Positions 55,798-64,000 of a DNA stretch of 64,000 bases are shown here, in pieces; position 1 is the first letter of the stretch; every line of letters begins with the position of its first letter. The DNA comes from Myxococcota bacterium (GTDB taxonomy: Bacteria; Myxococcota_A; UBA9160; SMWR01): contig DATBRV010000141.1 of NCBI GenBank assembly GCA_036560145.1, positions 13,982 to 77,981 of the forward strand. The letters are read 5' to 3'. The notes below the pieces were generated by a model that saw only the letters and a program-made list of their open reading frames with translations, was not told where the DNA came from and searched no databases. The position numbers and the translations under genes were made by a program.

Positions 55798-56513
55798 CAG
55801 CCGCCGGTCTCCGCTTCGACGCGCCGCATGTAGGCGACCAGGCCGGGGCGGGAGTTCAGGAGCTGCGCGGAGTCGGGCATCGAGCCGTGCTCGACGGAGC
55901 GCAGCATCGAGTAGACCGCGAGGTCCGCCATGCTCGGGCGCTCGGCGTAGAAGAAGGGCCGCGTGCCGAGCAGGTTCACCAGGTCGTCGAGGCGATCGGC
56001 CATGCCGCGCACGATCGCGGTCTCCGGCCGCTCCCAGGTGCCTCCCGCGCGCAGCCAGGCGAACAGCCGGCGCAGCATCGCGATCCGCGCGAGTCCGCCC
56101 CGCTTCGGCGCGGCGGCTTCCGCCGCCTCCCGCTGCGCCTTGACCCGCTGCCAGCGCAGGAAATAGAAGAGGAAGGACTCGTCGGCCCAGTCTTCGAGCT
56201 GGCGCTGCTGGAGCGCGATCTTGGGCTCGCTCGCCAGCAGCGGCGGGTTCGGAAAGCGCTCGTCGAGGCGCAGCAGGATCGCGGTCGAATCGTGGGTCCG
56301 CTCGCCGTCGATCGTCAGCACGGGAAGCAGGCCGGTGTCGGGGCTCCAGCGCTTGAAATCCTCGGGGCCCGAGGGCTCGAAGAGATCGAAGGCGAGGCCC
56401 TTCATCAAGAGCGCGCGGCGCACCTTCTCCGTGAACGGCGTCTGCGACTGGCCGTAGAGGGCGATCTTGCGGCCCCCGCCCGCCGCCGCGCTCCCAGAAG
56501 ACTTGTCCGTCAC
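55797..56513 (-). CDS. glutathione S-transferase family protein
   Basis: GTG 56513, 13 nt after the upstream stop, inside ORF 55797..56609. Thioredoxin-like N-domain (LYGQSQTPFTEKVRRALLMKGL...LPVL) and a helical C-domain. Confidence 0.72.
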   Translation of the reverse strand: MTDKSSGSAAAGGGRKIALYGQSQTPFTEKVRRALLMKGLAFDLFEPSGPEDFKRWSPDTGLLPVLTIDGERTHDSTAILLRLDERFPNPPLLASEPKIALQQRQLEDWADESFLFYFLRWQRVKAQREAAEAAAPKRGGLARIAMLRRLFAWLRAGGTWERPETAIVRGMADRLDDLVNLLGTRPFFYAERPSMADLAVYSMLRSVEHGSMPDSAQLLNSRPGLVAYMRRVEAETGG

Positions 56514-56526
56514 CTGGCCCGCTCCG

Positions 56527-57306
56527 TCAGCCGCCGGTCTGGCGGCGACCCCGCTCCTGCACCGCGCCCCGCCGCGTCGCCACCAGCTCGGGCGTGATCC
56601 CCTTGGCAAATTCTTTTGAGACGCGCGCCTCGAGGCGCAGCCCCTCTTCGAAGGTGGTCGCGAAGCCGGCGTCGATCACCTGCTTGTAGCCCCGCAGCGA
56701 GGCCGGATCGCAGGAGAGCATGTCCGCGGCCAGCTGCCGGCAGGCGCCGAGCAGCTCGGCCGGCGCCACCACGCGGTTCACGAGCCCCCAGGCGAGCGCC
56801 TGCTCGGCGCCGATGAAGTTCCCGGTGAAGGAGAGCTCCTTGGCCCGCCCGATTCCGATCAGCCGGGGGAGCTTCTGGGAGAGGCCCCAGCCCGGCAGGA
56901 TGCCGACACGCGCATGCGTATCTGCGAAGCGGGCCTCGCTGGACGCGATCAGCAGATCGCAGGCGAGCGCGAGCTCGAAGCCGCCGGTGATGGCGAAGCC
57001 GTTCACGGCGCCGATCACCGGCCCGGGGAAGCCGCGGATCGCGGCCATCATGTCGGCGTCGGTGAAGGCGCCGAGCGGCTGCGAGCCCCGGCTGCCGAGT
57101 TCTTTGAGGTCGAGCCCCGCGCAGAAGGCCTTGCCCGCGCCGGTGAGGATCGCGACCCGGACCGAGTCGTCCTGCGCAAGCTCGCGGAAGCCCTGGGTGA
57201 GGGCCTGGCGCAGCTCGTGCGAGAGCGCGTTCATCGCCTGGGGGCGGTTCAGGGTCAGGCAGGCGACCCCGGCGTTCTTCTCCACCATCAGGACGGGCGA
57301 GGACAT
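56527..57306 (-). CDS. enoyl-CoA hydratase/isomerase (crotonase) family
   Basis: ORF 56527..57306; GGAGG RBS. GAGKAFCAGLDL, GFAITGGFELALACD. Confidence 0.92.
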   Translation of the reverse strand: MSSPVLMVEKNAGVACLTLNRPQAMNALSHELRQALTQGFRELAQDDSVRVAILTGAGKAFCAGLDLKELGSRGSQPLGAFTDADMMAAIRGFPGPVIGAVNGFAITGGFELALACDLLIASSEARFADTHARVGILPGWGLSQKLPRLIGIGRAKELSFTGNFIGAEQALAWGLVNRVVAPAELLGACRQLAADMLSCDPASLRGYKQVIDAGFATTFEEGLRLEARVSKEFAKGITPELVATRRGAVQERGRRQTGG

Positions 57307-57420
57307 GGGGGACCTCCGGGCGGGCAGAAGCGCGAGGATACGGGGCGCGCGCGGCCCGCGCGAGCGCCCGTCGCCGCGCGAGGATGACTCCGCGGGACGC
57401 TTCCGTCACAATCCGCGCCG

Positions 57421-57786
57421 ATGGCGCCGCCGCGCAATCCGGGAAGCTACGCGCGCATCCATGCGGTGGTGCGGCGAATCCCGCGCGGGCGCGTGGCCAC
57501 CTACGGGCAGGTCGCGGCGCTCGCGGGCCTGCCGGGTCAGGCGCGCCAGGTCGGCTACGCCCTGCACGCGCTCGCCGAGGGGAGCCCCGTGCCGTGGCAG
57601 CGGGTGGTGAACGCGCAGGGCGAGGTGAGCCCCCGGCGCATGCCCGGCTGGGACGGCCTACAGCGCGCGCTGCTCGAGCGCGAGGGGATCGACTTCGACG
57701 CGCGCGGCCGCATCGACCTCGAGAGCCGGCGCTGGCGCCCGCGCGCGGGAGCGGGCGGGCGGCGCGCCGCACACGGCTTCGCGTGA
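57421..57786 (+). CDS. MGMT-family DNA-binding protein lacking the acceptor Cys (alkyltransferase-like, ATL)
   Basis: ORF 57421..57786. IPRGRVATYGQVA helix-turn-helix region; VPWQRVV in place of the PCHRV active site. Confidence 0.82.
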   Translation: MAPPRNPGSYARIHAVVRRIPRGRVATYGQVAALAGLPGQARQVGYALHALAEGSPVPWQRVVNAQGEVSPRRMPGWDGLQRALLEREGIDFDARGRIDLESRRWRPRAGAGGRRAAHGFA

Positions 57787-59264
57787 GGCGGATCGCGGGG
57801 CTCGCCGCCGTCGCGCTCGCGCTGCTCCTGCTCGTGCTCGGGATCCGCACCGCCGCGCTGGGCTCGCGCCGGCCGGCGGTGGCCGCGGCCCCCGTCGTGG
57901 TCATCGACGAAGCAGCGGCGGCGCGCCGGCTCGCCGGCGGCCTGCGCCTGCGCACCGTGTCGACGGAAGACCGGGCGGCCGCCCTCGGCGCGCAGTTCGA
58001 GGCCTTCCGCGCCTACCTCGAGCGCAGCTACCCGCGGCTCCACGCCGCGCTCTCGCGCGAGCTCGTGGACGGCGCCAGCCTGCTCTACACCTGGAAGGGT
58101 CGACAGCCCGAGCTGCCGGCGCTGCTGCTGCTCGCGCACCAGGACGTGGTGCCCGTCGAAGCGGGAACCGAAGCCAGCTGGGCGCATCCGCCCTTCGAGG
58201 GCGTGATCGACGCCGGCTACGTGTGGGGACGCGGCGCGGCCGACGACAAGGGCAACCTCTTCGCCATCCTGGAGGCGGTCGAAGGCCTGCTCGCCGAGGG
58301 CTTCACGCCCGAGCGCACGCTGCTGCTCGGCTTTGGCCACGACGAAGAAGTCGGCGGCGAGGGCGCCCAGGCGATCGCGGCGCGGCTCGCGAGCCGCGGG
58401 GACGCGATCGAATCCGTGCTCGACGAGGGCGGCGCGATCGTGCAGGGCGCCGTGCCGGGCGTCGCGACGCCGCTCGCGATGATCGGAACGGCGGAGAAGG
58501 GCTCGCTGACGATCGATCTCTCGGTCGAGATCGAGGGAGGCCACTCTTCGACGCCGCCCCGCCACACCGCGATCGGCATCCTCGCGGCCGCCTTGACCCG
58601 GCTCGAGGCGAACCCGATGCCGGGCCGGATCGCGGGCCCGACCCGCGGCATGGCCGATCGGCTCGCCCCCGAGCTCGGCCTGCCGTTCCGGGTGGTGCTC
58701 GCGAACCTCTGGCTGTTCGGGCCGGTGCTCGAGCTCGCAATGGCCGGCCAGCCGCCGCTCGACGCGCTGCTGCGCACCACCACCGCCGTCACCATCGCGA
58801 GCGGCGGGGTGAAGGAGAACGTGCTCCCGGCACGGGCGAGCGCCGTCGTGAACTTCCGGATCCTGCCGGGCGACACCGTCGAGGACGTGGTGGCGCACGT
58901 GCGCCGCGTGGTCGGCGACGAGCGGATCCAGATCCAGCCCGGCGTCCGCAGCACGCCGCGCAATCCGACCCCGGAATCGCCGGTGGACGATCCCAGCTTC
59001 GCGCGTCTCGCGCTGACGGTCGGGGAGATCTTTCCCGGCGTGCCCGCGGTTCCCTTCCTGGTGCTGGGCGGGACCGACGCGCGGCACTATGCGGAGCTGA
59101 CGCCGCGGCTCTACCGTCTGAGCCCCTTCCTCTTCGAGATGGGGGACCTGAAGCGGGTGCACGGCACCGACGAGCGGCTCTCGATCGCGAGCCTCGCGGA
59201 CGGCGTGCGCTTCTTCCGGCGCCTGATCGAGAATTCCGCGCCCGCTCAGCCGCCTTCGCCGTAG
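57783..59264 (+). CDS. M20/M25/M40 family peptidase (membrane-anchored)
   Basis: GTG 57783 forms a GTGA overlap with the ATL stop, inside ORF 57384..59264. TM anchor, HQDVVP, GAADDKG, GHDEEVGG. Confidence 0.85.
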   Translation: MRRIAGLAAVALALLLLVLGIRTAALGSRRPAVAAAPVVVIDEAAAARRLAGGLRLRTVSTEDRAAALGAQFEAFRAYLERSYPRLHAALSRELVDGASLLYTWKGRQPELPALLLLAHQDVVPVEAGTEASWAHPPFEGVIDAGYVWGRGAADDKGNLFAILEAVEGLLAEGFTPERTLLLGFGHDEEVGGEGAQAIAARLASRGDAIESVLDEGGAIVQGAVPGVATPLAMIGTAEKGSLTIDLSVEIEGGHSSTPPRHTAIGILAAALTRLEANPMPGRIAGPTRGMADRLAPELGLPFRVVLANLWLFGPVLELAMAGQPPLDALLRTTTAVTIASGGVKENVLPARASAVVNFRILPGDTVEDVVAHVRRVVGDERIQIQPGVRSTPRNPTPESPVDDPSFARLALTVGEIFPGVPAVPFLVLGGTDARHYAELTPRLYRLSPFLFEMGDLKRVHGTDERLSIASLADGVRFFRRLIENSAPAQPPSP

Positions 59265-60109
59265 CGCGCCAGCGCCGCGTCGTAGGCGTCGAAGCCGACC
59301 AGCTCGCGCAGCTCCGCGAAATCGAGCAGCCGCGGCGGCGGCTCGCCGCGCGCGAGCGCCGCGAGCGCGTCCTGCATGGCGCGGATGGCGGAGGAGAGCA
59401 GCGTGAGCGGGTACGCGGCGATCCGAAAGCCCAGCGCCTCGAGGCTCGCCGGCGGGAGCAGGGGCGTGTCGCCTCCTTCGACCAGGTTGGCGAGCTGGCG
59501 AGCGGGGATCTCCCGGCAGATCCGCTGCATCTCCGCCTCGGAGCGGGGCGCCTCCACGAACACGATGTCGGCGCCCAGATCGGCGAAGGCGCGTCCGCGC
59601 CAGATGGCTTCGTCGAGCCCGATCGGCCCGCGCGCGTCCGTGCGGGCGAGCACCAGCACGTCCGCCCCCTGCTCGCGCGCGTCGACCGCGGCGCGTACGC
59701 GCGCGAGCGCCTCCTCGCGCGAGACGACCTGCTTGCCGCGCGTGTGCCCGCAGCGCTTGGGCGCGAGCTGGTCCTCGATCATCACGCTCGCGAAGCCCGC
59801 CGCGGCGTAGCCGGAGACCGTGCGTCGCACGTTCATGGGATTCCCGTAGCCGGTGTCGGCGTCTCCGATCACCGGGATCGAGACGGCGGCGCAGATGCTG
59901 CGCCCCTGCTCGACCATCTCGCCGTAGGAGATCAGCCCGGTGTCGGGCAGCGCCAGCCGGGCCGCGGAGACCGCGAAGCCGCTCATGAAGGTGAGCTCGA
60001 AGCCGGCCCGCTCGACGAGTTTCGCCGAGAGCGCGTCGAAGCAGCAGGGCATCACGCGCAGTCCGGGGCGGTCGAGAAGCCGCCTCAGCCTGGCGGCGGA
60101 TGAATCCAT
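59246..60109 (-). CDS. isocitrate lyase/PEP mutase superfamily enzyme (lyase-type)
   Basis: ORF 59246..60109; AGGAGG RBS. GDADTGYG and the catalytic-loop KRCGH motif. Lies 31 nt downstream of the kinase gene on the same strand. Confidence 0.88.
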   Translation of the reverse strand: MDSSAARLRRLLDRPGLRVMPCCFDALSAKLVERAGFELTFMSGFAVSAARLALPDTGLISYGEMVEQGRSICAAVSIPVIGDADTGYGNPMNVRRTVSGYAAAGFASVMIEDQLAPKRCGHTRGKQVVSREEALARVRAAVDAREQGADVLVLARTDARGPIGLDEAIWRGRAFADLGADIVFVEAPRSEAEMQRICREIPARQLANLVEGGDTPLLPPASLEALGFRIAAYPLTLLSSAIRAMQDALAALARGEPPPRLLDFAELRELVGFDAYDAALARYGEGG

Positions 60110-60140
60110 CGTCGTCTCCTCCTGGCGGGGAGGAGATTAC

Positions 60141-61865
60141 CTAGACCGGCAGCCGGATGCAGAACGTGCTGCCGACGCCGACCTTCGAGGTCACGGTGAT
60201 CTCGCCGCCGTGGTGGCGGACGATCTGGTAGCAGTGGGCGAGGCCGAGGCCGGCGGCGGTGCCGGTGCGGCGGGTCGTAAAAAAAGGATCGAAGATCCGC
60301 TCGATCTGGTCCTCGGGAATCCCGCAGCCGTCGTCCTCGACCCGGATCCGCACGAAGTCGCCCTGCGCTTCGGTCACCAGGCGGATCACGCCGAAGTCGC
60401 CCACCGCCTGGAGCGCGTTGAGCAGCAGGTTCAGGAAGACCTGGCGGAGCTGCTGCGCGTCGCAGCGCACGGGAGGCAGCTCGGCGTAGCAGCGCTCGAC
60501 CACCACCGAGAACGAGAGCGCCGCCACGTTGACCGCGTTCTCGAGCAGATCGTTCACGCTCGCGAGCTGCGGCGCGCCGAGGCCGGCCTGCGAGAAGGCG
60601 CTCACCTCCCGCACGATGGTGGCCACGCGCTCGACGCCCTCGCCCGACTCCTCGATCAGGTCGGCGCCCTCGATCAGCACCGGCGCGAGCAGCTCGTCCC
60701 GGGCGTCGACGCCGACGGCGAGCGCGCGCCACTGCTCGCGCAGCTCGATCAGGTTGGCGCGCACGTCCGTGACGGGCTCGTCGATCTCCTGCGCGATCCC
60801 GGCCGCCAGCTCGCCCACCGCGGCCAGCCGCCCGGAGGTGATCAGCCGATTTCGCAGCGCCGCCACCTCGCGCAGGTCCCGGACGGCGAGCACGCGGCCG
60901 ATCACGTCGCGCTGCTCGTCGTGCAGCGGCGAGGCCGAGACCGAGACCGGCATCGGCGCCGATGCCTGTGGCCGCAGGTCCAGCTCGACTCCCCGGGACG
61001 CGGCCGCGCAGTCGCGCGCCAGCCCCGGCAGCCACTGGTAGACCGCCGCGTCGGCGAGCTCGGCCGGCGCGATGCCGACCAAGCGCGCGAAGGCCTCGTT
61101 GCAGGTCCGGATCCGGCCGTCCGGGTGCAGCAGCACGACGCCGTCGCGAAGCGTTTCGAGGATCGGGCGGGCGAAGGCGCCGGGCGCGAGCAGGAAGTAG
61201 CCGTGGCGGCGCACGCTTCCCGCCACGATCGCGCCGAGCGCCAGCAGGCTCATGCTCCCAAGCCTCGGCACGTCGATCGCGAGCAGGGGCAGCAGCGCGT
61301 CGGTTACCGAAGCGACCGCGAGCGGGGCGAGGATGCCCGCCAGCAGCCAGCGCGCCTCGCGGCGCTCGCCGGGCGACACCGTGGGCGGGAACAGGCTGGG
61401 CCACTGCGCGATCACGAAGCCGGTGCTCACGGCCGTCGGCAGGTACACGAGCGGGAAGAGCGGGCCGAAGCGGACCCCCCAGCCCAGGCTCGTCCGCACC
61501 GGCTCCGCGAGACACCAGGGCGTGGCGACGTAGAGCAGGATGGAGGCGACCGCGCAGGCGTACGCCCAGGGCAGCGCGCGGCGCAGCCCGGTGTTGGCGC
61601 CGCCCACCAGCTCCGAGATGATGTGCAGGGTGAGCGGGCCGAGCCACATCCATCCGAGCGAGGAGAGCCGGACCCATTGCAGGACCCGCCGCGGGTCGTC
61701 CGAGAGGCTCCAGAACACCTCGCACAGCGACCAGTGCGCCGAGCAGAGGAGCACGATCGCGACCAGGCGGTTGGCCCGCTGCTTCGAGTTGATCGCGAGC
61801 AGCGCCACCGCGAGCATCACCGCGGCCAGGCTCGCGACGAGCTGGACGATCGCGAAGGGGTGCAT
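60141..61865 (-). CDS. 7TM-PAS sensor histidine-kinase paralogue lacking the phospho-acceptor His
   Basis: ATG 61865 (TGATG overlap with the upstream kinase stop) inside ORF 60141..63665. Multi-TM N-terminus and a PAS domain. H-box reads AAGIAQEIDEP (CAG at 60789-60791). N-box and G-boxes are intact (FLNLLLNALQA, DDGCGI, GLGLA). Confidence 0.85.
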   Translation of the reverse strand: MHPFAIVQLVASLAAVMLAVALLAINSKQRANRLVAIVLLCSAHWSLCEVFWSLSDDPRRVLQWVRLSSLGWMWLGPLTLHIISELVGGANTGLRRALPWAYACAVASILLYVATPWCLAEPVRTSLGWGVRFGPLFPLVYLPTAVSTGFVIAQWPSLFPPTVSPGERREARWLLAGILAPLAVASVTDALLPLLAIDVPRLGSMSLLALGAIVAGSVRRHGYFLLAPGAFARPILETLRDGVVLLHPDGRIRTCNEAFARLVGIAPAELADAAVYQWLPGLARDCAAASRGVELDLRPQASAPMPVSVSASPLHDEQRDVIGRVLAVRDLREVAALRNRLITSGRLAAVGELAAGIAQEIDEPVTDVRANLIELREQWRALAVGVDARDELLAPVLIEGADLIEESGEGVERVATIVREVSAFSQAGLGAPQLASVNDLLENAVNVAALSFSVVVERCYAELPPVRCDAQQLRQVFLNLLLNALQAVGDFGVIRLVTEAQGDFVRIRVEDDGCGIPEDQIERIFDPFFTTRRTGTAAGLGLAHCYQIVRHHGGEITVTSKVGVGSTFCIRLPV

Positions 61866-63619
61866 CAGTCGCCTCCCTCCGCAGCCGGGGCCGTCACCGG
61901 CAGGAGGACACGGAAGCGCATGCCGCGCCCCGGCTGGGATTCGACCTGGATCCGGCCGCCCTGGCGCTCCACGATCTGCCGCGAGATCGCGAGCCCGAGC
62001 CCGGCTTGCGCCACGCCGTCCGGCGACGGCGAGAAGGGATCGAAGATCCGCTCCAGGTCCTCGGGCGTGAGCCCGGCGCCGTCGGTCGCAATCTCGACCC
62101 AGACGAATCCGCCGTCGATTCCGGCCGACAGAGCGAGCTGGCCGCGCTCCTCGATCGTGTTCACGCCCGCCAGCACCAGGTTGAGGAAGACCTGCATCAG
62201 CTCCTGCGGGCGGCAGGGCACCAGCGGAAGCTTCACGAAGCTGCGCTCGACGCTCGCCTTGCGGCGCAGCTGCGGCCCGGCCACACGCAGCGCGGTCTCG
62301 AGCAGCTCGACCGGGTCGGCGGGCTCGTTCTCCGAGCCTCCCTTCCAGGAGAAGCCGCCCACGTCGCGCACGATCGAGGCGATCCGGTCGATTCCGTCCG
62401 CCGCCGCGCGCAGCAGCTCGCGGGAGCGTGTGAGCGCGGCGTACGTATTCGGCGCCGCCGCGCGCGATTCGAAGACTTCCGCGAGATCGTTCCAGTGCCG
62501 CTCCAGCAGGCCGACGTTCGAGCGCACGTAGGCGATCGGGTTGTTGATCTCGTGCGCGATGCCCGCCGCGAGCTGTCCGACCGCGGCCAGGCGCGCCGAG
62601 GTGAGCAGGCGGCTGCGCAGCGAGACCAGCTCCTCGAGATCCCGCACCACCAGCACGCGCCCGATCGCGAAGCCGCTCTCGTCGTGCAGCCAGGCGTCGG
62701 AGATCGAGACCGGCACGCGCGCGCCGGAGGCGCTCCTCAGCTCGCACTCGCGCTCGGCGCCGCCGGCGGCCTCCGGCGGCTCCTGGATCAGCTCGCCCAC
62801 GGGCCGGCCGACGAGATCGTCGGAATCGCGCTTGGCCAGCTGCGCGAGCTTGGCGTTCACGCCCCGGATCCGGCCGTCGAGGCGGACCAGCGCGACGCCG
62901 TCGGGGAGCGTGGCGAGGATCTCGCTCGCGAACTGGCGCGGCGAGAGCCCGGCAGCGCGGAAGCGGTAGGCCATCCACCAGGTGACCAGGCCCCACGCGG
63001 CGACGCTCGCGCTGCCGAGCCTGGGCACCGGCTTGCCGAGAGTCGGCAGCAGGAAGTCGGTGATCGAGGCCACCAGCATGGTGAGGCCGATCGCAAGCTC
63101 GACCCACGGGGTCCCGCGCGATGGCGTCACGCGCTCCAGCGTGCGCAGCCGCAGCGCCCGCAGCAGTGTGAGCACGGGCACCAGCAGCAGGGCCAGGTAG
63201 GCCCAGGGCACCAGCGGTCCGATCCGCGGGACGAAGCCCCAGCTCTCGCGCGTGACGTCGGGCGTGAACCAGGGGCCGCCGAGGGCCGCAAGCACGAGCG
63301 CCGCGCCGATCGCGTACTGGGCGGTCACGATCCAGCGTCTGGGGAGGCGCGGATCGGGCATCACCACGGCCATCAGGTGCAGCGCGACCGGCGAGAGCAG
63401 GATGCTCCCCAGCGCTGCCAGCCGCGCGAAAGGCAAGGCCGAGCCGGCGTCCTTCGCGGTGAGGCAGAGCACCTCGAAGAGCGCCCACCAGACGTCGCAG
63501 AGCAGCACCGCGGCCACCAGGCGGTTCGCGCGCTGGCCCGGTTCGCGTGCGGCGATCGCGGCGGCGAGCGCCGCGGCGCCGAAGGCGGTCGCGAGCGGGA
63601 TCAGGACGGCGGGGTGCAC
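61865..63619 (-). CDS. 7TM-PAS sensor histidine kinase with degenerate N-box
   Basis: ORF 61865..63715. GTG 63619 is preferred by alignment with the paralogue N-terminus (VHPAVLIPLA vs MHPFAIVQLV). H-box AAGIAHEINNP (CAC at 62552-62554). N-box FLNLVLAGVNT has Ala (62168-62170) where the second Asn is expected. Confidence 0.85.
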   Translation of the reverse strand: MHPAVLIPLATAFGAAALAAAIAAREPGQRANRLVAAVLLCDVWWALFEVLCLTAKDAGSALPFARLAALGSILLSPVALHLMAVVMPDPRLPRRWIVTAQYAIGAALVLAALGGPWFTPDVTRESWGFVPRIGPLVPWAYLALLLVPVLTLLRALRLRTLERVTPSRGTPWVELAIGLTMLVASITDFLLPTLGKPVPRLGSASVAAWGLVTWWMAYRFRAAGLSPRQFASEILATLPDGVALVRLDGRIRGVNAKLAQLAKRDSDDLVGRPVGELIQEPPEAAGGAERECELRSASGARVPVSISDAWLHDESGFAIGRVLVVRDLEELVSLRSRLLTSARLAAVGQLAAGIAHEINNPIAYVRSNVGLLERHWNDLAEVFESRAAAPNTYAALTRSRELLRAAADGIDRIASIVRDVGGFSWKGGSENEPADPVELLETALRVAGPQLRRKASVERSFVKLPLVPCRPQELMQVFLNLVLAGVNTIEERGQLALSAGIDGGFVWVEIATDGAGLTPEDLERIFDPFSPSPDGVAQAGLGLAISRQIVERQGGRIQVESQPGRGMRFRVLLPVTAPAAEGGD

Positions 63620-63774
63620 GCGATGGGAGCTCCGTGCGTTCGCATCGGAGGAACCGGCATGCCACTTGAAAGCAGAAGCCCGGGAAGCATCCCGCGCCGC
63701 CTCGTGATTCGGCACGGATCGCCGCGGCGATCCCGGCGTGCTACCGACCTGCGGATCAGGCTCCGGAGGCGCGC

Positions 63775-64000
63775 ATGACCCGGGCGCTCGACGCGCTGCT
63801 CGGAATCCTCGATCTCGAAGAGCTGGAGGTGAACCTCTTCCGCGGCCGCAGCCCTCAAGAAGGCTCGCAGCGCGTCTTCGGGGGGCAGGTGCTGGGGCAG
63901 GCCCTGATCGCCGCCGGCCGCACGGTCGAGCGGGACGCGGCCCACTCCTTCCACGCCTACTTCCTACGTCCGGGGGATCCCAAGACCCCCATCCTCTACC
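63775..64000 (+). CDS. tesB: acyl-CoA thioesterase II (3' end beyond window)
   Basis: Own translation from ATG 63775 (GGAGG upstream): [51 protein letters not shown]...[19 protein letters not shown]. This closely parallels the E. coli TesB N-terminus. It is absent from the ORF track because the frame is open at the window end. Confidence 0.9.

What the first reader, a model, noticed from the sequence alone, without database searches (positions are those of the whole stretch)
60141..63619. Translationally coupled paralogous sensor kinases with complementary inactivating substitutions
Two adjacent minus-strand genes joined by a TGATG stop/start overlap at 61863-61867. They encode the same architecture: multi-TM N-terminal region (ANRLVA-VLLC... 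conserved in both), PAS, DHp and CA.
- The upstream protein (61865..63619) keeps the H-box His (AAGIAHEINNP). Its N-box reads FLNLVLAGVNT, with Ala where the second, Mg-ATP-coordinating Asn is expected (the position of EnvZ N347).
- The downstream protein (60141..61865) has an intact N-box (FLNLLLNALQA) and G-boxes (DDGCGI, GLGLA). Its H-box reads AAGIAQEIDEP, so the phospho-acceptor His is Gln (CAG; one nucleotide from CAC/CAT).

One partner can probably bind ATP but not be phosphorylated, and the other the reverse. This suggests an obligate heterodimer with trans-phosphorylation, or a regulator/pseudokinase pair. No response regulator gene is adjacent. An ICL/PEP-mutase-family lyase follows 31 nt downstream with its own RBS and may be co-transcribed.
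Basis: partly seen in the sequence, partly recalled or inferred. Interest (0 to 1): 0.7.

Follow-up and report, generated by a model that had tools for sequence, protein, structure and literature searches.

The report
Two half-dead sensor kinases, complementary
Two adjacent, related sensor kinase genes in a Myxococcota genome have each lost the opposite half of the kinase reaction (one cannot bind ATP, the other has no histidine to phosphorylate). Both defects are kept in every orthologue examined, so the two proteins most likely work only together as one "split" kinase.

Summary
HK-A (61865..63619, minus strand) and HK-B (60141..61865, minus strand) are 39% identical paralogues. Both have a 7TM-PAS-DHp-CA architecture and they are joined by a TGATG stop/start overlap.

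- **HK-A** keeps a perfect H-box (AAGIAHEINNP). It has lost three ATP-site elements: the N-box Mg-Asn (Ala484), the G1 adenine-binding Asp (Thr512), and the FTT(K/R) lid motif (SPSP).
- **HK-B** has every ATP motif intact, but Gln359 replaces the phospho-acceptor His. It has no conserved His elsewhere in its DHp.
- **Conservation:** all 26 HK-A-clade and all 25 HK-B-clade cluster representatives carry the same states. More distant syntenic pairs are intact in both genes.
- **Paired states:** 24 pairs are A-intact with B-His, 1 is A-intact with B-Gln, and 7 are A-degenerate with B-Gln. No pair is A-degenerate with B-His.
- **Selection:** HK-B's CA domain is the most constrained domain of the pair (omega about 0.11). 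HK-A's DHp is also constrained (about 0.25).
- **Context:** no receiver domain lies in the 64-kb window.

Best reading: this is a functionally split class-I histidine kinase, in which HK-B's ATP-binding domain phosphorylates HK-A's His356 in a hetero-oligomer. This is inferred from evolution, not shown biochemically. It is a new variant of a known kind (split kinases and pseudo-kinases).

The parts
61865..63619 (-). HK-A gene (584 aa, GTG start). Domains: HisKA_7TM (aa 9-227), PAS (232-329), DHp/HisKA (347-425), degenerate HATPase_c (471-576). This is the His-bearing, ATP-site-dead half.
   Evidence: The start is fixed by the conserved VHP N-terminus in orthologues. Gene callers annotate the same 584-aa product in L001-L006.
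60141..61865 (-). HK-B gene (574 aa, ATG start). Domains: HisKA_7TM (13-228), PAS (236-335), His-less DHp (about 340-432), intact HATPase_c (469-573). This is the ATP-binding, His-less half.
   Evidence: The Pfam HisKA model does not detect its DHp.
61863..61867 (-). TGATG: the HK-A stop (TGA) overlaps the HK-B start (ATG) by one base, giving translational coupling.
   Evidence: The same TGATG junction is present in 10 of 10 loci that contain both genes, including distant intact pairs.
61872..61880 (-). GGAGGGAGG Shine-Dalgarno sequence for HK-B, located inside the 3' end of HK-A.
   Evidence: Read.
62552..62554 (-). HK-A His356 codon (CAC) in AAGIAHEINNP. This is the proposed sole phospho-acceptor of the pair. 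The HE..N phosphatase motif is intact.
   Evidence: His is present in 26 of 26 focal and 61 of 61 outgroup HK-A relatives.
62168..62170 (-). HK-A Ala484 codon (GCG) at the N-box Mg-ATP-coordinating Asn position.
   Evidence: Ala is present in 26 of 26 focal sequences and Asn in 61 of 61 outgroup sequences.
62084..62086 (-). HK-A Thr512 codon (ACC) at the G1-box adenine-binding Asp position (first D of DxGxG).
   Evidence: Aligned to the D of DSGKG in ZraS and DTGVG in KinB. The residue is Val, Ile or Thr in 26 of 26 focal sequences and Asp in 61 of 61 outgroup sequences.
62021..62032 (-). HK-A S530-P533 (SPSP), replacing the F-T-T-(K/R) ATP-lid motif. The G2 box GLGLA that follows is retained.
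   Evidence: The motif is lost in all 26 focal HK-A sequences and present in 60 of 61 outgroup sequences.
60789..60791 (-). HK-B Gln359 codon (CAG) at the phospho-acceptor His position. The H+4 Asn is also replaced by Glu (QEIDEP).
   Evidence: Gln is present in 25 of 25 focal sequences. There is no conserved His anywhere in the HK-B DHp.
60417..60419 (-). HK-B Asn483 codon (AAC), the intact N-box Mg-ATP Asn.
60240..60335 (-). HK-B G1 box (D511-D-G-C-G), F box and lid (FDPFFTTR), and G2 box (GLGL), all intact.
   Evidence: All are invariant in 25 of 25 focal HK-B sequences. The CA domain has omega of about 0.11.
59246..60109 (-). PrpB-like ICL/PEP-mutase-family gene (287 aa), 31 nt downstream with its own AGGAGG. 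It is probably co-transcribed and is not an obligatory member of the unit.
   Evidence: Pfam PEP_mutase E=5.7e-45. The best NCBIfam match is methylisocitrate lyase at 240 bits, below the 354-bit cut-off. The gene is present downstream in L001-L006, L087-L091 and L093, and absent in L092 and the P0118 locus.
63620..63775 (.). Divergent intergenic region between HK-A and a 4HBT-type thioesterase gene; presumed promoter and 5'UTR. It contains a conserved block TTCAAG...TCCGATG at 63643-63670.
   Evidence: Alignment of upstream regions from 8 loci. No sigma-70 consensus was found.

Best explanation
HK-A and HK-B form a functionally split class-I histidine kinase made from two full-length paralogues.

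**Shown**
- HK-B has a complete, strongly constrained ATP-binding (CA) domain but no phosphorylatable His in its DHp.
- HK-A has a perfectly conserved H-box, including the catalytic Glu and the HE..N phosphatase motif.
- HK-A's CA domain has lost the Mg-Asn, the adenine-binding Asp and the lid motif, so it should not bind ATP.
- The genes are translationally coupled by TGATG.
- Both sets of states are fixed in all orthologues examined.

**Inferred**
- The two proteins are made together from one mRNA and assemble in the membrane into a hetero-oligomer. The simplest form is a DHp heterodimer; the alternative is A2 plus B2 in one complex.
- HK-B's CA domain phosphorylates His356 of HK-A in trans.
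- HK-A then acts as phosphodonor, and probably phosphatase, for an unlinked response regulator.
- Only one of the two possible half-sites of the dimer is live. The transient asymmetry seen in ordinary homodimeric kinases is therefore hard-wired here.

**Inferred evolutionary route**
- An old tandem duplication gave a coupled pair with both members intact. This state is still seen in distant relatives.
- HK-B then lost its His. This happened repeatedly in the HK-B lineage and never in the HK-A lineage.
- Once HK-B's domain supplied the activity, HK-A's ATP site decayed. This happened once.
For: 1. **Residue states.** HK-A focal clade, n=26: His 26, Asn-to-Ala 26, G1 Asp lost 26, lid motif lost 26. 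HK-B focal clade, n=25: Gln 25, and all N, G1, F and G2 residues 25 of 25. HMMER alignment to ZraS and KinB confirms the positions.
2. **Orthologous intact pairs.** Loci in more distant Myxococcota have the same flanking genes and the same TGATG junction, with both kinases intact (L091, L093).
3. **Paired states on shared contigs.** There are 24 intact/His pairs, 1 intact/Gln pair (L092), 7 degenerate/Gln pairs and 0 degenerate/His pairs.
4. **Asymmetry of loss.** Fitch parsimony on the NJ tree gives 7 His/non-His changes among 118 HK-B-lineage proteins and 0 among 87 HK-A-lineage proteins. It gives one N-box loss in the HK-A lineage and none in the HK-B lineage.
5. **Selection in four shared genomes.** HK-B's CA has omega 0.11 (93% aa identity), the lowest of all eight domains. 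HK-A's DHp has 0.25, HK-B's His-less DHp 0.20, and HK-A's CA 0.41, which is relaxed but not neutral.
6. **Widened CA gap.** The difference in CA identity (B minus A) is 0.19 in the focal clade, with B higher in 21 of 21 comparisons. It is 0.05 in intact outgroup pairs.
7. **No alternative acceptor.** HK-B has no conserved His in its DHp.
8. **Precedent.** Split kinases are known in which one protein carries the kinase domain and phosphorylates another that carries the His. CheA4 and CheA3 are the characterised example; neither autophosphorylates alone (PMC3591291).
Against: - No physical or biochemical evidence exists. Interaction, stoichiometry and phosphotransfer are all inferred.
- A DHp heterodimer works only if the bundle has trans geometry.
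- HK-like proteins that cannot autophosphorylate can instead be fed by a receiver domain. RedE in M. xanthus receives its phosphoryl group from RedD (PMC2755868). HK-A could therefore work without HK-B's catalysis.
- His-less kinases such as DivL act as regulators (PMC4211667).
- No response regulator is nearby, so the output is unknown.
- The omega values are NG86 estimates in a 71% GC genome, from four to eight genomes only.
- The tree is neighbour-joining with midpoint rooting.
Confidence: 0.6

Rival explanations
1. The two proteins are a phosphotransferase/phosphatase plus a pseudokinase regulator. HK-A is a RedE-, ChpT- or Spo0B-like His-phosphotransfer or phosphatase protein. Its His is loaded by a receiver domain of some unlinked kinase or regulator. 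HK-B is a His-less regulator, like DivL or RetS, that tunes HK-A allosterically. It binds ATP or ADP only as a ligand and does not phosphorylate HK-A.
For: - RedE of M. xanthus is an HK-like protein with an invariant His. It does not autophosphorylate, receives phosphate from the RedD receiver, and dephosphorylates RedF (PMC2755868).
- HK-A keeps the HE..N phosphatase motif.
- HK-HK heteromers that regulate rather than phosphorylate are known, for example RetS-GacS (PMC8498467, PMC12189002).
- HK-B lost the H+4 Asn as well as the His.
Against: - No receiver domain lies within 64 kb, or in the 8-10 kb flanks of nine related loci.
- All five ATP-site motifs of HK-B are invariant, and its CA domain is the slowest-evolving domain of the pair (omega 0.11). 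That level of constraint is hard to explain for a purely allosteric pseudokinase.
- HK-A's ATP site decayed only in the lineage where its partner is the His-less, ATP-competent HK-B. A third-party phosphodonor would not predict this.
Confidence: 0.22
2. HK-B has been repurposed as a non-histidine kinase or an ATPase. It might act as a Ser/Thr/Tyr kinase like the GHKL kinases SpoIIAB and RsbW, or as an ATP-driven switch. Its target would be HK-A or an unrelated protein. HK-A's His would then be irrelevant to HK-B.
For: - HK-B has an intact, highly constrained ATP site but no DHp His.
- The H-box changed to an acidic QEIDEP motif that is itself conserved, with Glu at H+4 in 23 of 25 sequences.
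- An unrelated REC-DHp-CA protein (L094) independently shows the same AQEIDEP motif.
Against: - This does not explain why HK-A's H-box stays perfect while its own ATP site is dead.
- It does not explain the strict co-occurrence and translational coupling.
- No Ser/Thr kinase signature was found; Pfam and NCBIfam see only ordinary HK domains.
Confidence: 0.1
3. The substitutions are an artefact or decay: a sequencing or assembly error, a strain-specific mutation, or two kinases on their way to becoming pseudogenes.
For: - Each key change is one or two nucleotides from the canonical residue. CAG is one substitution from CAC/CAT, and GCG is two from AAC/AAT.
- One related assembly (L088) shows HK-A split by a frameshift.
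Against: - The identical protein occurs in an NCBI MAG and five separate metagenome assemblies.
- The same states occur in 25 and 26 cluster representatives, down to 60-70% identity.
- Every domain has omega below 1, and five of the six cytoplasmic domains are at 0.32 or lower.
- The L088 frameshift sits in a long-read assembly that also splits the neighbouring PEPCK gene, so it is an assembly error.
Confidence: 0.02

Closest known systems
Split histidine kinases (CheA3/CheA4 of Rhodobacter sphaeroides; Hik36/Hik43 of Synechocystis; concept and census in Amin, Porter & Soyer 2013, PMC3591291; PMC6829392; PMC7656254)
   Same: ATP binding/catalysis and the phosphorylatable His sit on two different proteins that must cooperate. 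Neither half should autophosphorylate alone. The His-bearing half keeps a phosphatase function: HK-A keeps HE..N, the motif used in the PMC3591291 census of potentially bifunctional split kinases.
   Different: - The known cases are CheA-type (class II) kinases split by absence of whole domains. Their His lies on a separate HPt (P1) domain.
- Here both partners are full-length class-I paralogues that retain every domain. The split is made by point degeneration: His to Gln in one, and loss of Asn, Asp and the lid motif in the other.
- Domain-based censuses such as the SMART count in PMC3591291 cannot see this type.
M. tuberculosis HK1/HK2/TcrA three-protein system (Shrivastava et al. 2007; the mechanism is recalled from memory, and the system is only listed in PMC9321153)
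   Same: It is a class-I kinase whose ATP-binding part (HK1) and His-containing part (HK2) are separate adjacent gene products that feed one regulator.
   Different: It arose by splitting one gene into two fragments, each lacking the other's domain. It did not arise by duplication and reciprocal loss. Its cognate regulator gene is adjacent; here none is.
Engineered complementing heterodimers of EnvZ or NtrB (a His-minus subunit with an ATP-site-minus subunit; Yang & Inouye 1991, Ninfa et al. 1993; recalled from memory, not checked here)
   Same: The logic is exactly the same. A subunit without His but with a live CA domain phosphorylates the His of a partner whose CA domain is dead. This is the classic proof of trans-autophosphorylation.
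   Different: Those are laboratory mutants of one homodimeric protein. Here the equivalent pair is natural, encoded by two diverged genes, and conserved across a clade.
Pseudo-histidine kinases and regulatory HK heteromers (DivL-CckA, PMC4211667; RetS-GacS, PMC8498467, PMC12189002)
   Same: One HK homologue lacks the canonical phospho-acceptor or kinase activity and works through another HK.
   Different: In those systems the partner kinase is fully competent on its own, and the pseudo-kinase only modulates it. Here neither partner is predicted to be competent alone.
RedE of the M. xanthus RedCDEF system (PMC2755868)
   Same: It is an HK-like protein from the same phylum with an invariant His that cannot autophosphorylate and acts as phospho-acceptor and phosphatase. 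It is a model for HK-A's role.
   Different: - RedE is loaded from a receiver domain (RedD) encoded in the same operon.
- It is soluble and has no paralogous His-less partner.
- No receiver is encoded near HK-A.

Membership tests
Canonical class-I (HisKA/HATPase_c) autokinase | Phospho-acceptor His in the DHp H-box | tested here: not met
   Taken protein by protein, HK-A meets this feature (His356; 26 of 26 orthologues). HK-B does not (Gln359; 25 of 25), and it has no other conserved DHp His. So HK-B is not a canonical autokinase.
Canonical class-I (HisKA/HATPase_c) autokinase | Functional ATP site: N-box Asn, G1 DxGxG Asp, lid, G2 | tested here: not met
   HK-B meets every element (25 of 25). 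HK-A fails three of the four: Ala484, Thr512 and SPSP in place of FTTK. It keeps only G2. So HK-A is not a canonical autokinase. ATP binding itself was not measured.
Canonical class-I (HisKA/HATPase_c) autokinase | Domain architecture of sensor, DHp and CA recognised by profile models | tested here: met
   Pfam HATPase_c scores 73 bits in HK-A and 96 bits in HK-B. HisKA scores 31 bits in HK-A only. PAS is found in both. The closest solved structures are ZraS, CckA, the FixL chimera and KinB. No NCBIfam family reaches its cut-off.
Split histidine kinase (sensu PMC3591291) | One protein carries the catalytic ATP-binding function but no phosphorylatable His | tested here: met
   This describes HK-B, at residue level. 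It is not met in the literal sense of a missing domain.
Split histidine kinase (sensu PMC3591291) | The other protein carries the phosphorylatable His but no functional kinase domain | tested here: met
   This describes HK-A, at residue level. Its CA fold is still present and under purifying selection (omega 0.41), unlike CheA3 or HisKA-only proteins.
Split histidine kinase (sensu PMC3591291) | The two proteins form a complex, and the kinase half phosphorylates the His half | not testable with these tools
   Only indirect support is available: TGATG coupling in 10 of 10 loci, strict co-occurrence of states, and the selection pattern.
Split histidine kinase (sensu PMC3591291) | Phosphatase motif HE/DxxN/T on the His-bearing half (bifunctional split kinase) | tested here: met
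   HK-A has HEINN in 26 of 26 sequences. HK-B has QEIDE, so its motif is lost.
His-phosphotransfer proteins with a pseudo-CA domain (RedE/ChpT/Spo0B type) | His-bearing four-helix-bundle protein with a non-ATP-binding CA-like domain | tested here: met
   HK-A fits by residue states.
His-phosphotransfer proteins with a pseudo-CA domain (RedE/ChpT/Spo0B type) | Loaded from a receiver domain, typically encoded in the same operon or pathway | tested here: inconclusive
   No REC domain lies in the 64-kb window or in the flanks of related loci. An unlinked receiver cannot be excluded.
HisKA_7TM (PF16927) sensor family | N-terminal 7TM region matching the Pfam model above its gathering score | tested here: met
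   HK-B scores 39.9 bits against a cut-off of 28.6. HK-A scores 23.4 bits, below the cut-off, but aligns over 3-224 of 224 model positions and is homologous to HK-B throughout.

The most novel reading that the evidence does not exclude
This would be the first natural class-I histidine kinase that is an obligate heterodimer with one permanently live and one permanently dead half-site.

- It would have evolved from a tandem duplicate by reciprocal loss: first the His in one copy, then the ATP site in the other. The intermediate state still exists in related genomes.
- Autophosphorylation would necessarily be inter-protein and in trans.
- It would be a natural counter-example to the rule that paralogous kinases evolve to avoid heterodimerising.
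- It would show that "cryptic" split kinases, invisible to domain-based censuses, exist among proteins annotated as ordinary kinases or as "ATP-binding protein".
Probability: 0.45. Interest if true: 0.8.

Novelty: new variant of a known kind. Interest (0 to 1): 0.66.

Why it matters
**A natural version of a classic experiment.** Trans-autophosphorylation was demonstrated by mixing a His-minus mutant with an ATP-site-minus mutant of one kinase. Here evolution appears to have fixed that pair in two genes.

If confirmed, it would provide three things:
- A natural, stoichiometrically defined heterodimer for studying half-of-sites asymmetry, cis versus trans geometry, and how two different sensor domains are integrated in one kinase.
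- A documented stepwise route from a duplicate to an obligate hetero-complex: both intact, then B loses its His, then A loses its ATP site. All three stages are still sampled in related genomes.
- A warning for annotation and censuses. Both proteins carry HATPase_c hits, and HK-B is named only "ATP-binding protein". Domain-presence surveys of split or orphan kinases therefore miss this class.

Modelling of split kinases predicts ultrasensitive or bistable responses (PMC3591291), so the arrangement may also have a signalling rationale. The biological signal and output remain unknown.

Tried and rejected
- **Genome-contig scan.** The query was an HK-B family alignment.
- **Metagenome-contig scan.** The query was a back-translated AGIAQEIDEP pattern. 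It gave five loci, four of them focal. The fifth (L094) is an unrelated REC-kinase.
- **Heterodimer structure.** I submitted a GS-linked fusion of the HK-A and HK-B DHp-CA regions for AlphaFold. Coordinates are not returned in any case, so DHp handedness (cis versus trans) could not be assessed.
- **Sigma-54 promoter idea.** A TGGCAT-N5-TTCC match lies 45 nt upstream of HK-A. It is not conserved in orthologous loci and was rejected.
- **Terminator-like hits.** The hits at 60286-60306 lie inside the HK-B codons for IERIFDPFFTT. They are a coding T-run, not a terminator.
- **Alternative phospho-acceptor in HK-B.** There is no conserved His in its DHp. The invariant His544 and His552 lie in the CA domain.
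- **Lid deletion.** The MAFFT alignment suggested a deletion in HK-A's lid. This was an alignment artefact. The lid has the same length, with its sequence replaced.
- **Literature.** Searches for a described natural heterodimeric or reciprocally degenerate class-I kinase found none in the held library. This is absence of evidence only.

Full report
**1. The observation**

On the minus strand, HK-A runs from a GTG at 63619 to a TGA at 61867-61865. HK-B runs from the ATG at 61865-61863 to 60141. The TGATG junction shares one base between the stop and the start. A GGAGGGAGG Shine-Dalgarno sequence lies just upstream of it.

The proteins are 584 and 574 aa. They are 39% identical over their whole length, with E=1e-100. 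Pfam finds the same architecture in both: HisKA_7TM, PAS and HATPase_c. HisKA reaches its threshold only in HK-A, because HK-B's H-box is altered.

- HK-A has AAGIAHEINNP (His356, CAC) and FLNLVLAGV (Ala484, GCG).
- HK-B has AAGIAQEIDEP (Gln359, CAG), FLNLLLNAL, DDGCGI and GLGLA.

**2. HK-A's ATP site is more degenerate than reported**

HMMER alignments of HK-A's kinase core to solved ZraS (9jfj) and KinB (3d36) give three results:
- Ala484 aligns with the N-box Asn.
- Thr512 aligns with the first Asp of the G1 DxGxG motif, which binds adenine.
- SPSP (530-533) aligns with the FTTK lid motif.

Only the G2 box GLGL survives. That these residues are needed for nucleotide binding rests on established knowledge of GHKL ATPases and of EnvZ and NtrB mutants. 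It was not measured here. HK-B has all of these elements intact.

**3. Source, and exclusion of error**

The identical HK-B protein is encoded on 11 contigs. These include a Myxococcota MAG (GCA_044449805.1) and five separate JGI metagenome assemblies. In each, the same 584-aa HK-A lies immediately upstream.

**4. Conservation**

Two large protein searches returned 238 relatives, of which 229 full-length sequences were aligned. A neighbour-joining tree with midpoint rooting was built on 227 of these, after two frameshifted sequences were excluded. It separates three groups:
- an HK-A lineage of 87 proteins;
- an HK-B lineage of 118 proteins;
- a third group of 22 proteins, which is a solitary paralogue at another locus (L099).

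Catalytic-site states by clade:

| Clade | n | H-box position | ATP-site elements |
|---|---|---|---|
| HK-A focal (60% identity or more) | 26 | His in 26; HE..NP intact | Ala at the Asn site in 26; Val/Ile/Thr at the G1 Asp in 26; lid motif lost in 26 |
| HK-A outgroup | 61 | His in 61 | Canonical at essentially every position |
| HK-B focal (70% identity or more) | 25 | Gln in 25; Glu at H+4 in 23 | Every N, G1, F, lid and G2 residue intact in 25 |
| HK-B outgroup | 93 | His in 84; Gln 7, Tyr 1, Arg 1 | Intact |

The codons were confirmed in every focal DNA locus fetched that covers the site, beyond the window. CAG is present in 7 loci, GCG or GCC in 6, and CAC for HK-A's His in 6.

**5. Synteny and pairing**

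Nine further loci fetched with flanks show the same neighbourhood. Its order is:
- a divergently transcribed 4HBT thioesterase gene;
- HK-A, then HK-B;
- usually a PEP-mutase-family gene;
- a convergent M20 peptidase gene.

The intact outgroup pairs occupy this same locus in more distant Myxococcota: L091 (P0171 with P0063) and L093 (P0180 with P0039). They are therefore orthologous pairs and not unrelated kinases. TGATG joins the two genes in all 10 loci that contain both, including the outgroups.

I paired proteins by shared contig, a heuristic based on matching contig lengths. It was confirmed by DNA for four of the pairs (window, L087, L089 and L092). The paired states are:

| HK-A state | HK-B state | Pairs |
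|---|---|---|
| Intact | His | 24 |
| Intact | Gln | 1 (L092: P0185 with P0045) |
| Degenerate | Gln | 7 |
| Degenerate | His | 0 |

Fitch parsimony on the tree counts 7 His/non-His changes in the HK-B lineage and none in the HK-A lineage. It counts one N-box loss in the HK-A lineage and none in the HK-B lineage. The tree is approximate. Conservatively, HK-B-type proteins lost the His at least four or five separate times.

**6. Selection**

I computed per-domain Nei-Gojobori dN/dS among four genomes that have both genes.

| Domain | HK-A omega | HK-B omega |
|---|---|---|
| 7TM | 0.68 | 0.32 |
| PAS | 0.22 | 0.32 |
| DHp | 0.25 | 0.20 |
| CA | 0.41 | 0.11 |

- HK-B's ATP-binding domain is the most constrained part of the pair, at 93% amino-acid identity.
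- HK-A's degenerate CA domain is relaxed but not neutral.
- HK-B's His-less DHp is as constrained as HK-A's DHp, so it still has a role. Dimerisation and signal transmission are the obvious candidates.

The CA identity gap (B minus A) is 0.19 in the focal clade, with B higher in 21 of 21 comparisons. It is only 0.05 among intact outgroup pairs. The asymmetry therefore grew when the ATP site was lost. HK-A's 7TM region evolves faster than HK-B's in both the focal and outgroup sets.

These omega values are rough. The genome is 71% GC, few genomes were available, and the comparisons are pairwise.

**7. Context**

A phmmer search with the CheY, NtrC and PhoB receiver domains found no receiver domain and no other kinase among all 393 six-frame ORFs of the 64-kb window. 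None is annotated in the flanks of the related loci either. The pair is therefore an orphan.

The downstream gene is a PrpB-like member of the ICL/PEP-mutase superfamily. Its best match is methylisocitrate lyase at 240 bits, below the 354-bit cut-off. It is missing from two related loci, so it is a frequent neighbour and not a required component.

No NCBIfam kinase family reaches its cut-off. The best partial matches are AtoS, ZraS and the M. xanthus EspA and EspC kinase cores.

**8. Mechanism**

If the two proteins acted independently as homodimers, each would be dead. HK-B has nothing to phosphorylate and HK-A has no ATP. Dead genes do not keep an invariant H-box (HK-A), or an invariant ATP site with omega 0.11 (HK-B), across a clade that has diverged to 60-70% identity.

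The simplest reconciliation is cross-complementation: HK-B's CA domain phosphorylates HK-A's His356. Four observations point to a stable hetero-oligomer:
- the conserved translational coupling;
- the repeated dispensability of HK-B's His but never of HK-A's;
- the existence of the A-intact, B-Gln intermediate;
- the absence of the reverse combination.

The hetero-oligomer is most simply a DHp heterodimer with trans geometry, and it may already have existed in the intact ancestral pair.

This is an inference. The interaction, the geometry and the phosphotransfer are untested. I could not model the heterodimer.

**9. Rivals**

- **Phosphotransferase plus regulator.** HK-A could be a RedE-like phosphotransfer or phosphatase protein loaded by a receiver domain (PMC2755868), with HK-B as a DivL- or RetS-like regulator (PMC4211667, PMC8498467). 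This is weakened by the absence of any nearby receiver and by the extreme constraint on HK-B's catalytic residues. It is not excluded.
- **HK-B as a non-His kinase or ATPase.** This does not explain HK-A's state.
- **Error or decay.** This is excluded by the conservation data.

**10. Comparison with what is known**

The closest concept is the split histidine kinase (PMC3591291). In that arrangement one protein, CheA4, holds the kinase domain. It phosphorylates the His of another protein, CheA3, and neither works alone. Hik36 and Hik43 are a further CheA-type example (PMC7656254). M. tuberculosis HK1/HK2/TcrA is a class-I example created by gene fission (listed in PMC9321153; the mechanism is recalled from memory).

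All of these are defined by missing domains. Here both partners are full-length paralogues, and the split is written in a handful of residues. It is the natural equivalent of the engineered EnvZ and NtrB complementation pairs (recalled from memory).

Four full-text searches found no description of a natural, reciprocally degenerate class-I pair. That is only absence of evidence in the held library.

**11. Verdict**

I classify the pair as a new variant of a known kind: a cryptic, residue-level split kinase. My confidence that HK-B phosphorylates HK-A within a hetero-complex is about 0.6. Interest is moderately high. The system would be an attractive natural model for kinase asymmetry and for the evolution of obligate hetero-oligomers. 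Its signal, output and biochemistry are unknown.

Noticed in passing
L094:265-1584 (minus strand), contig Ga0164242_10044140: An unrelated 440-aa REC-DHp-CA protein carries the same His-less H-box, VGQLAAGIAQEIDEP, with an intact ATP site. It is only about as similar to HK-B as generic NtrB-type kinases are. A close relative (86% identity) has QEINEP. Of the relatives at 60% identity or less, 112 have His at that position (108 of them HEINNP), and six could not be scored. This looks like an independent, recent His-to-Gln loss that converged on the same acidic motif.
   Followed up: partly
window 63643-63670, and the equivalent positions upstream of HK-A in L087, L088, L089, L091, L092, L093 and L097: A sequence block upstream of HK-A, TTCAAG-N14-TCCGATG in the window, is conserved even in the distant intact pairs. 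It ends about 25 nt before the start codon. In the focal loci two further blocks (GGTAGCACGCC and CCGAATCCCGAG) are conserved further upstream. No sigma-70 or conserved sigma-54 consensus is present, so this may be an unrecognised promoter or regulatory site.
   Followed up: partly
B-lineage proteins P0029, P0038, P0040, P0045, P0048, P0054, P0072, P0102, P0118 (locus L092 for P0045): Outside the focal clade, HK-B-type proteins have replaced the phospho-acceptor His several separate times (Gln 7, Tyr 1, Arg 1) while keeping all ATP motifs. The one partner checked (P0185 in L092) is a fully intact kinase. No HK-A-type protein ever lacks the His.
   Followed up: partly
L088:6248-8001 (ENA ERZ25039554 contig_38983): HK-A is called as two genes (473 and 110 aa), and the nearby PEPCK gene is also split in two. 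This long-read assembly evidently contains frameshift errors and does not show a real pseudogene.
   Followed up: partly
window 59246-59264: The 3' ends of the PEP-mutase-family gene (minus strand, ends at 59246) and the convergent M20/M28 peptidase gene (plus strand, ends at 59264) overlap by 19 nt. The same 19-nt overlap is annotated in L001 to L006 and in L087 to L089.
   Followed up: no
window 60141-63665 (minus strand) and other long ORFs listed in 56500-64000: At 71% GC the region is full of long spurious ORFs in alternative frames. One is a 1174-aa ORF that reads through HK-A out of frame into HK-B. Others are 500-860-aa Arg/Ala/Pro-rich ORFs on the opposite strand. They are composition artefacts, not genes.
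   Followed up: no
L099:7001-8740 (ENA ERZ25039554 contig_65552): A third, solitary 7TM-PAS kinase paralogue, fully intact and about 45% identical to both HK-A and HK-B, sits at an unrelated locus. It lies beside a tyrosine-phosphatase-like gene, a Crp-family regulator and a PilZ-domain gene. This group of 22 proteins branches next to the HK-B lineage.
   Followed up: partly
HK-A aa 1-228 (window 62936-63619) versus HK-B aa 1-228 (window 61182-61865): HK-A's 7TM sensor region evolves about twice as fast as HK-B's (omega 0.68 versus 0.32; 54% versus 73% identity). This holds in intact outgroup pairs too. The two membrane modules are therefore under different constraints, and HK-B may be the main sensor.
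   Followed up: partly
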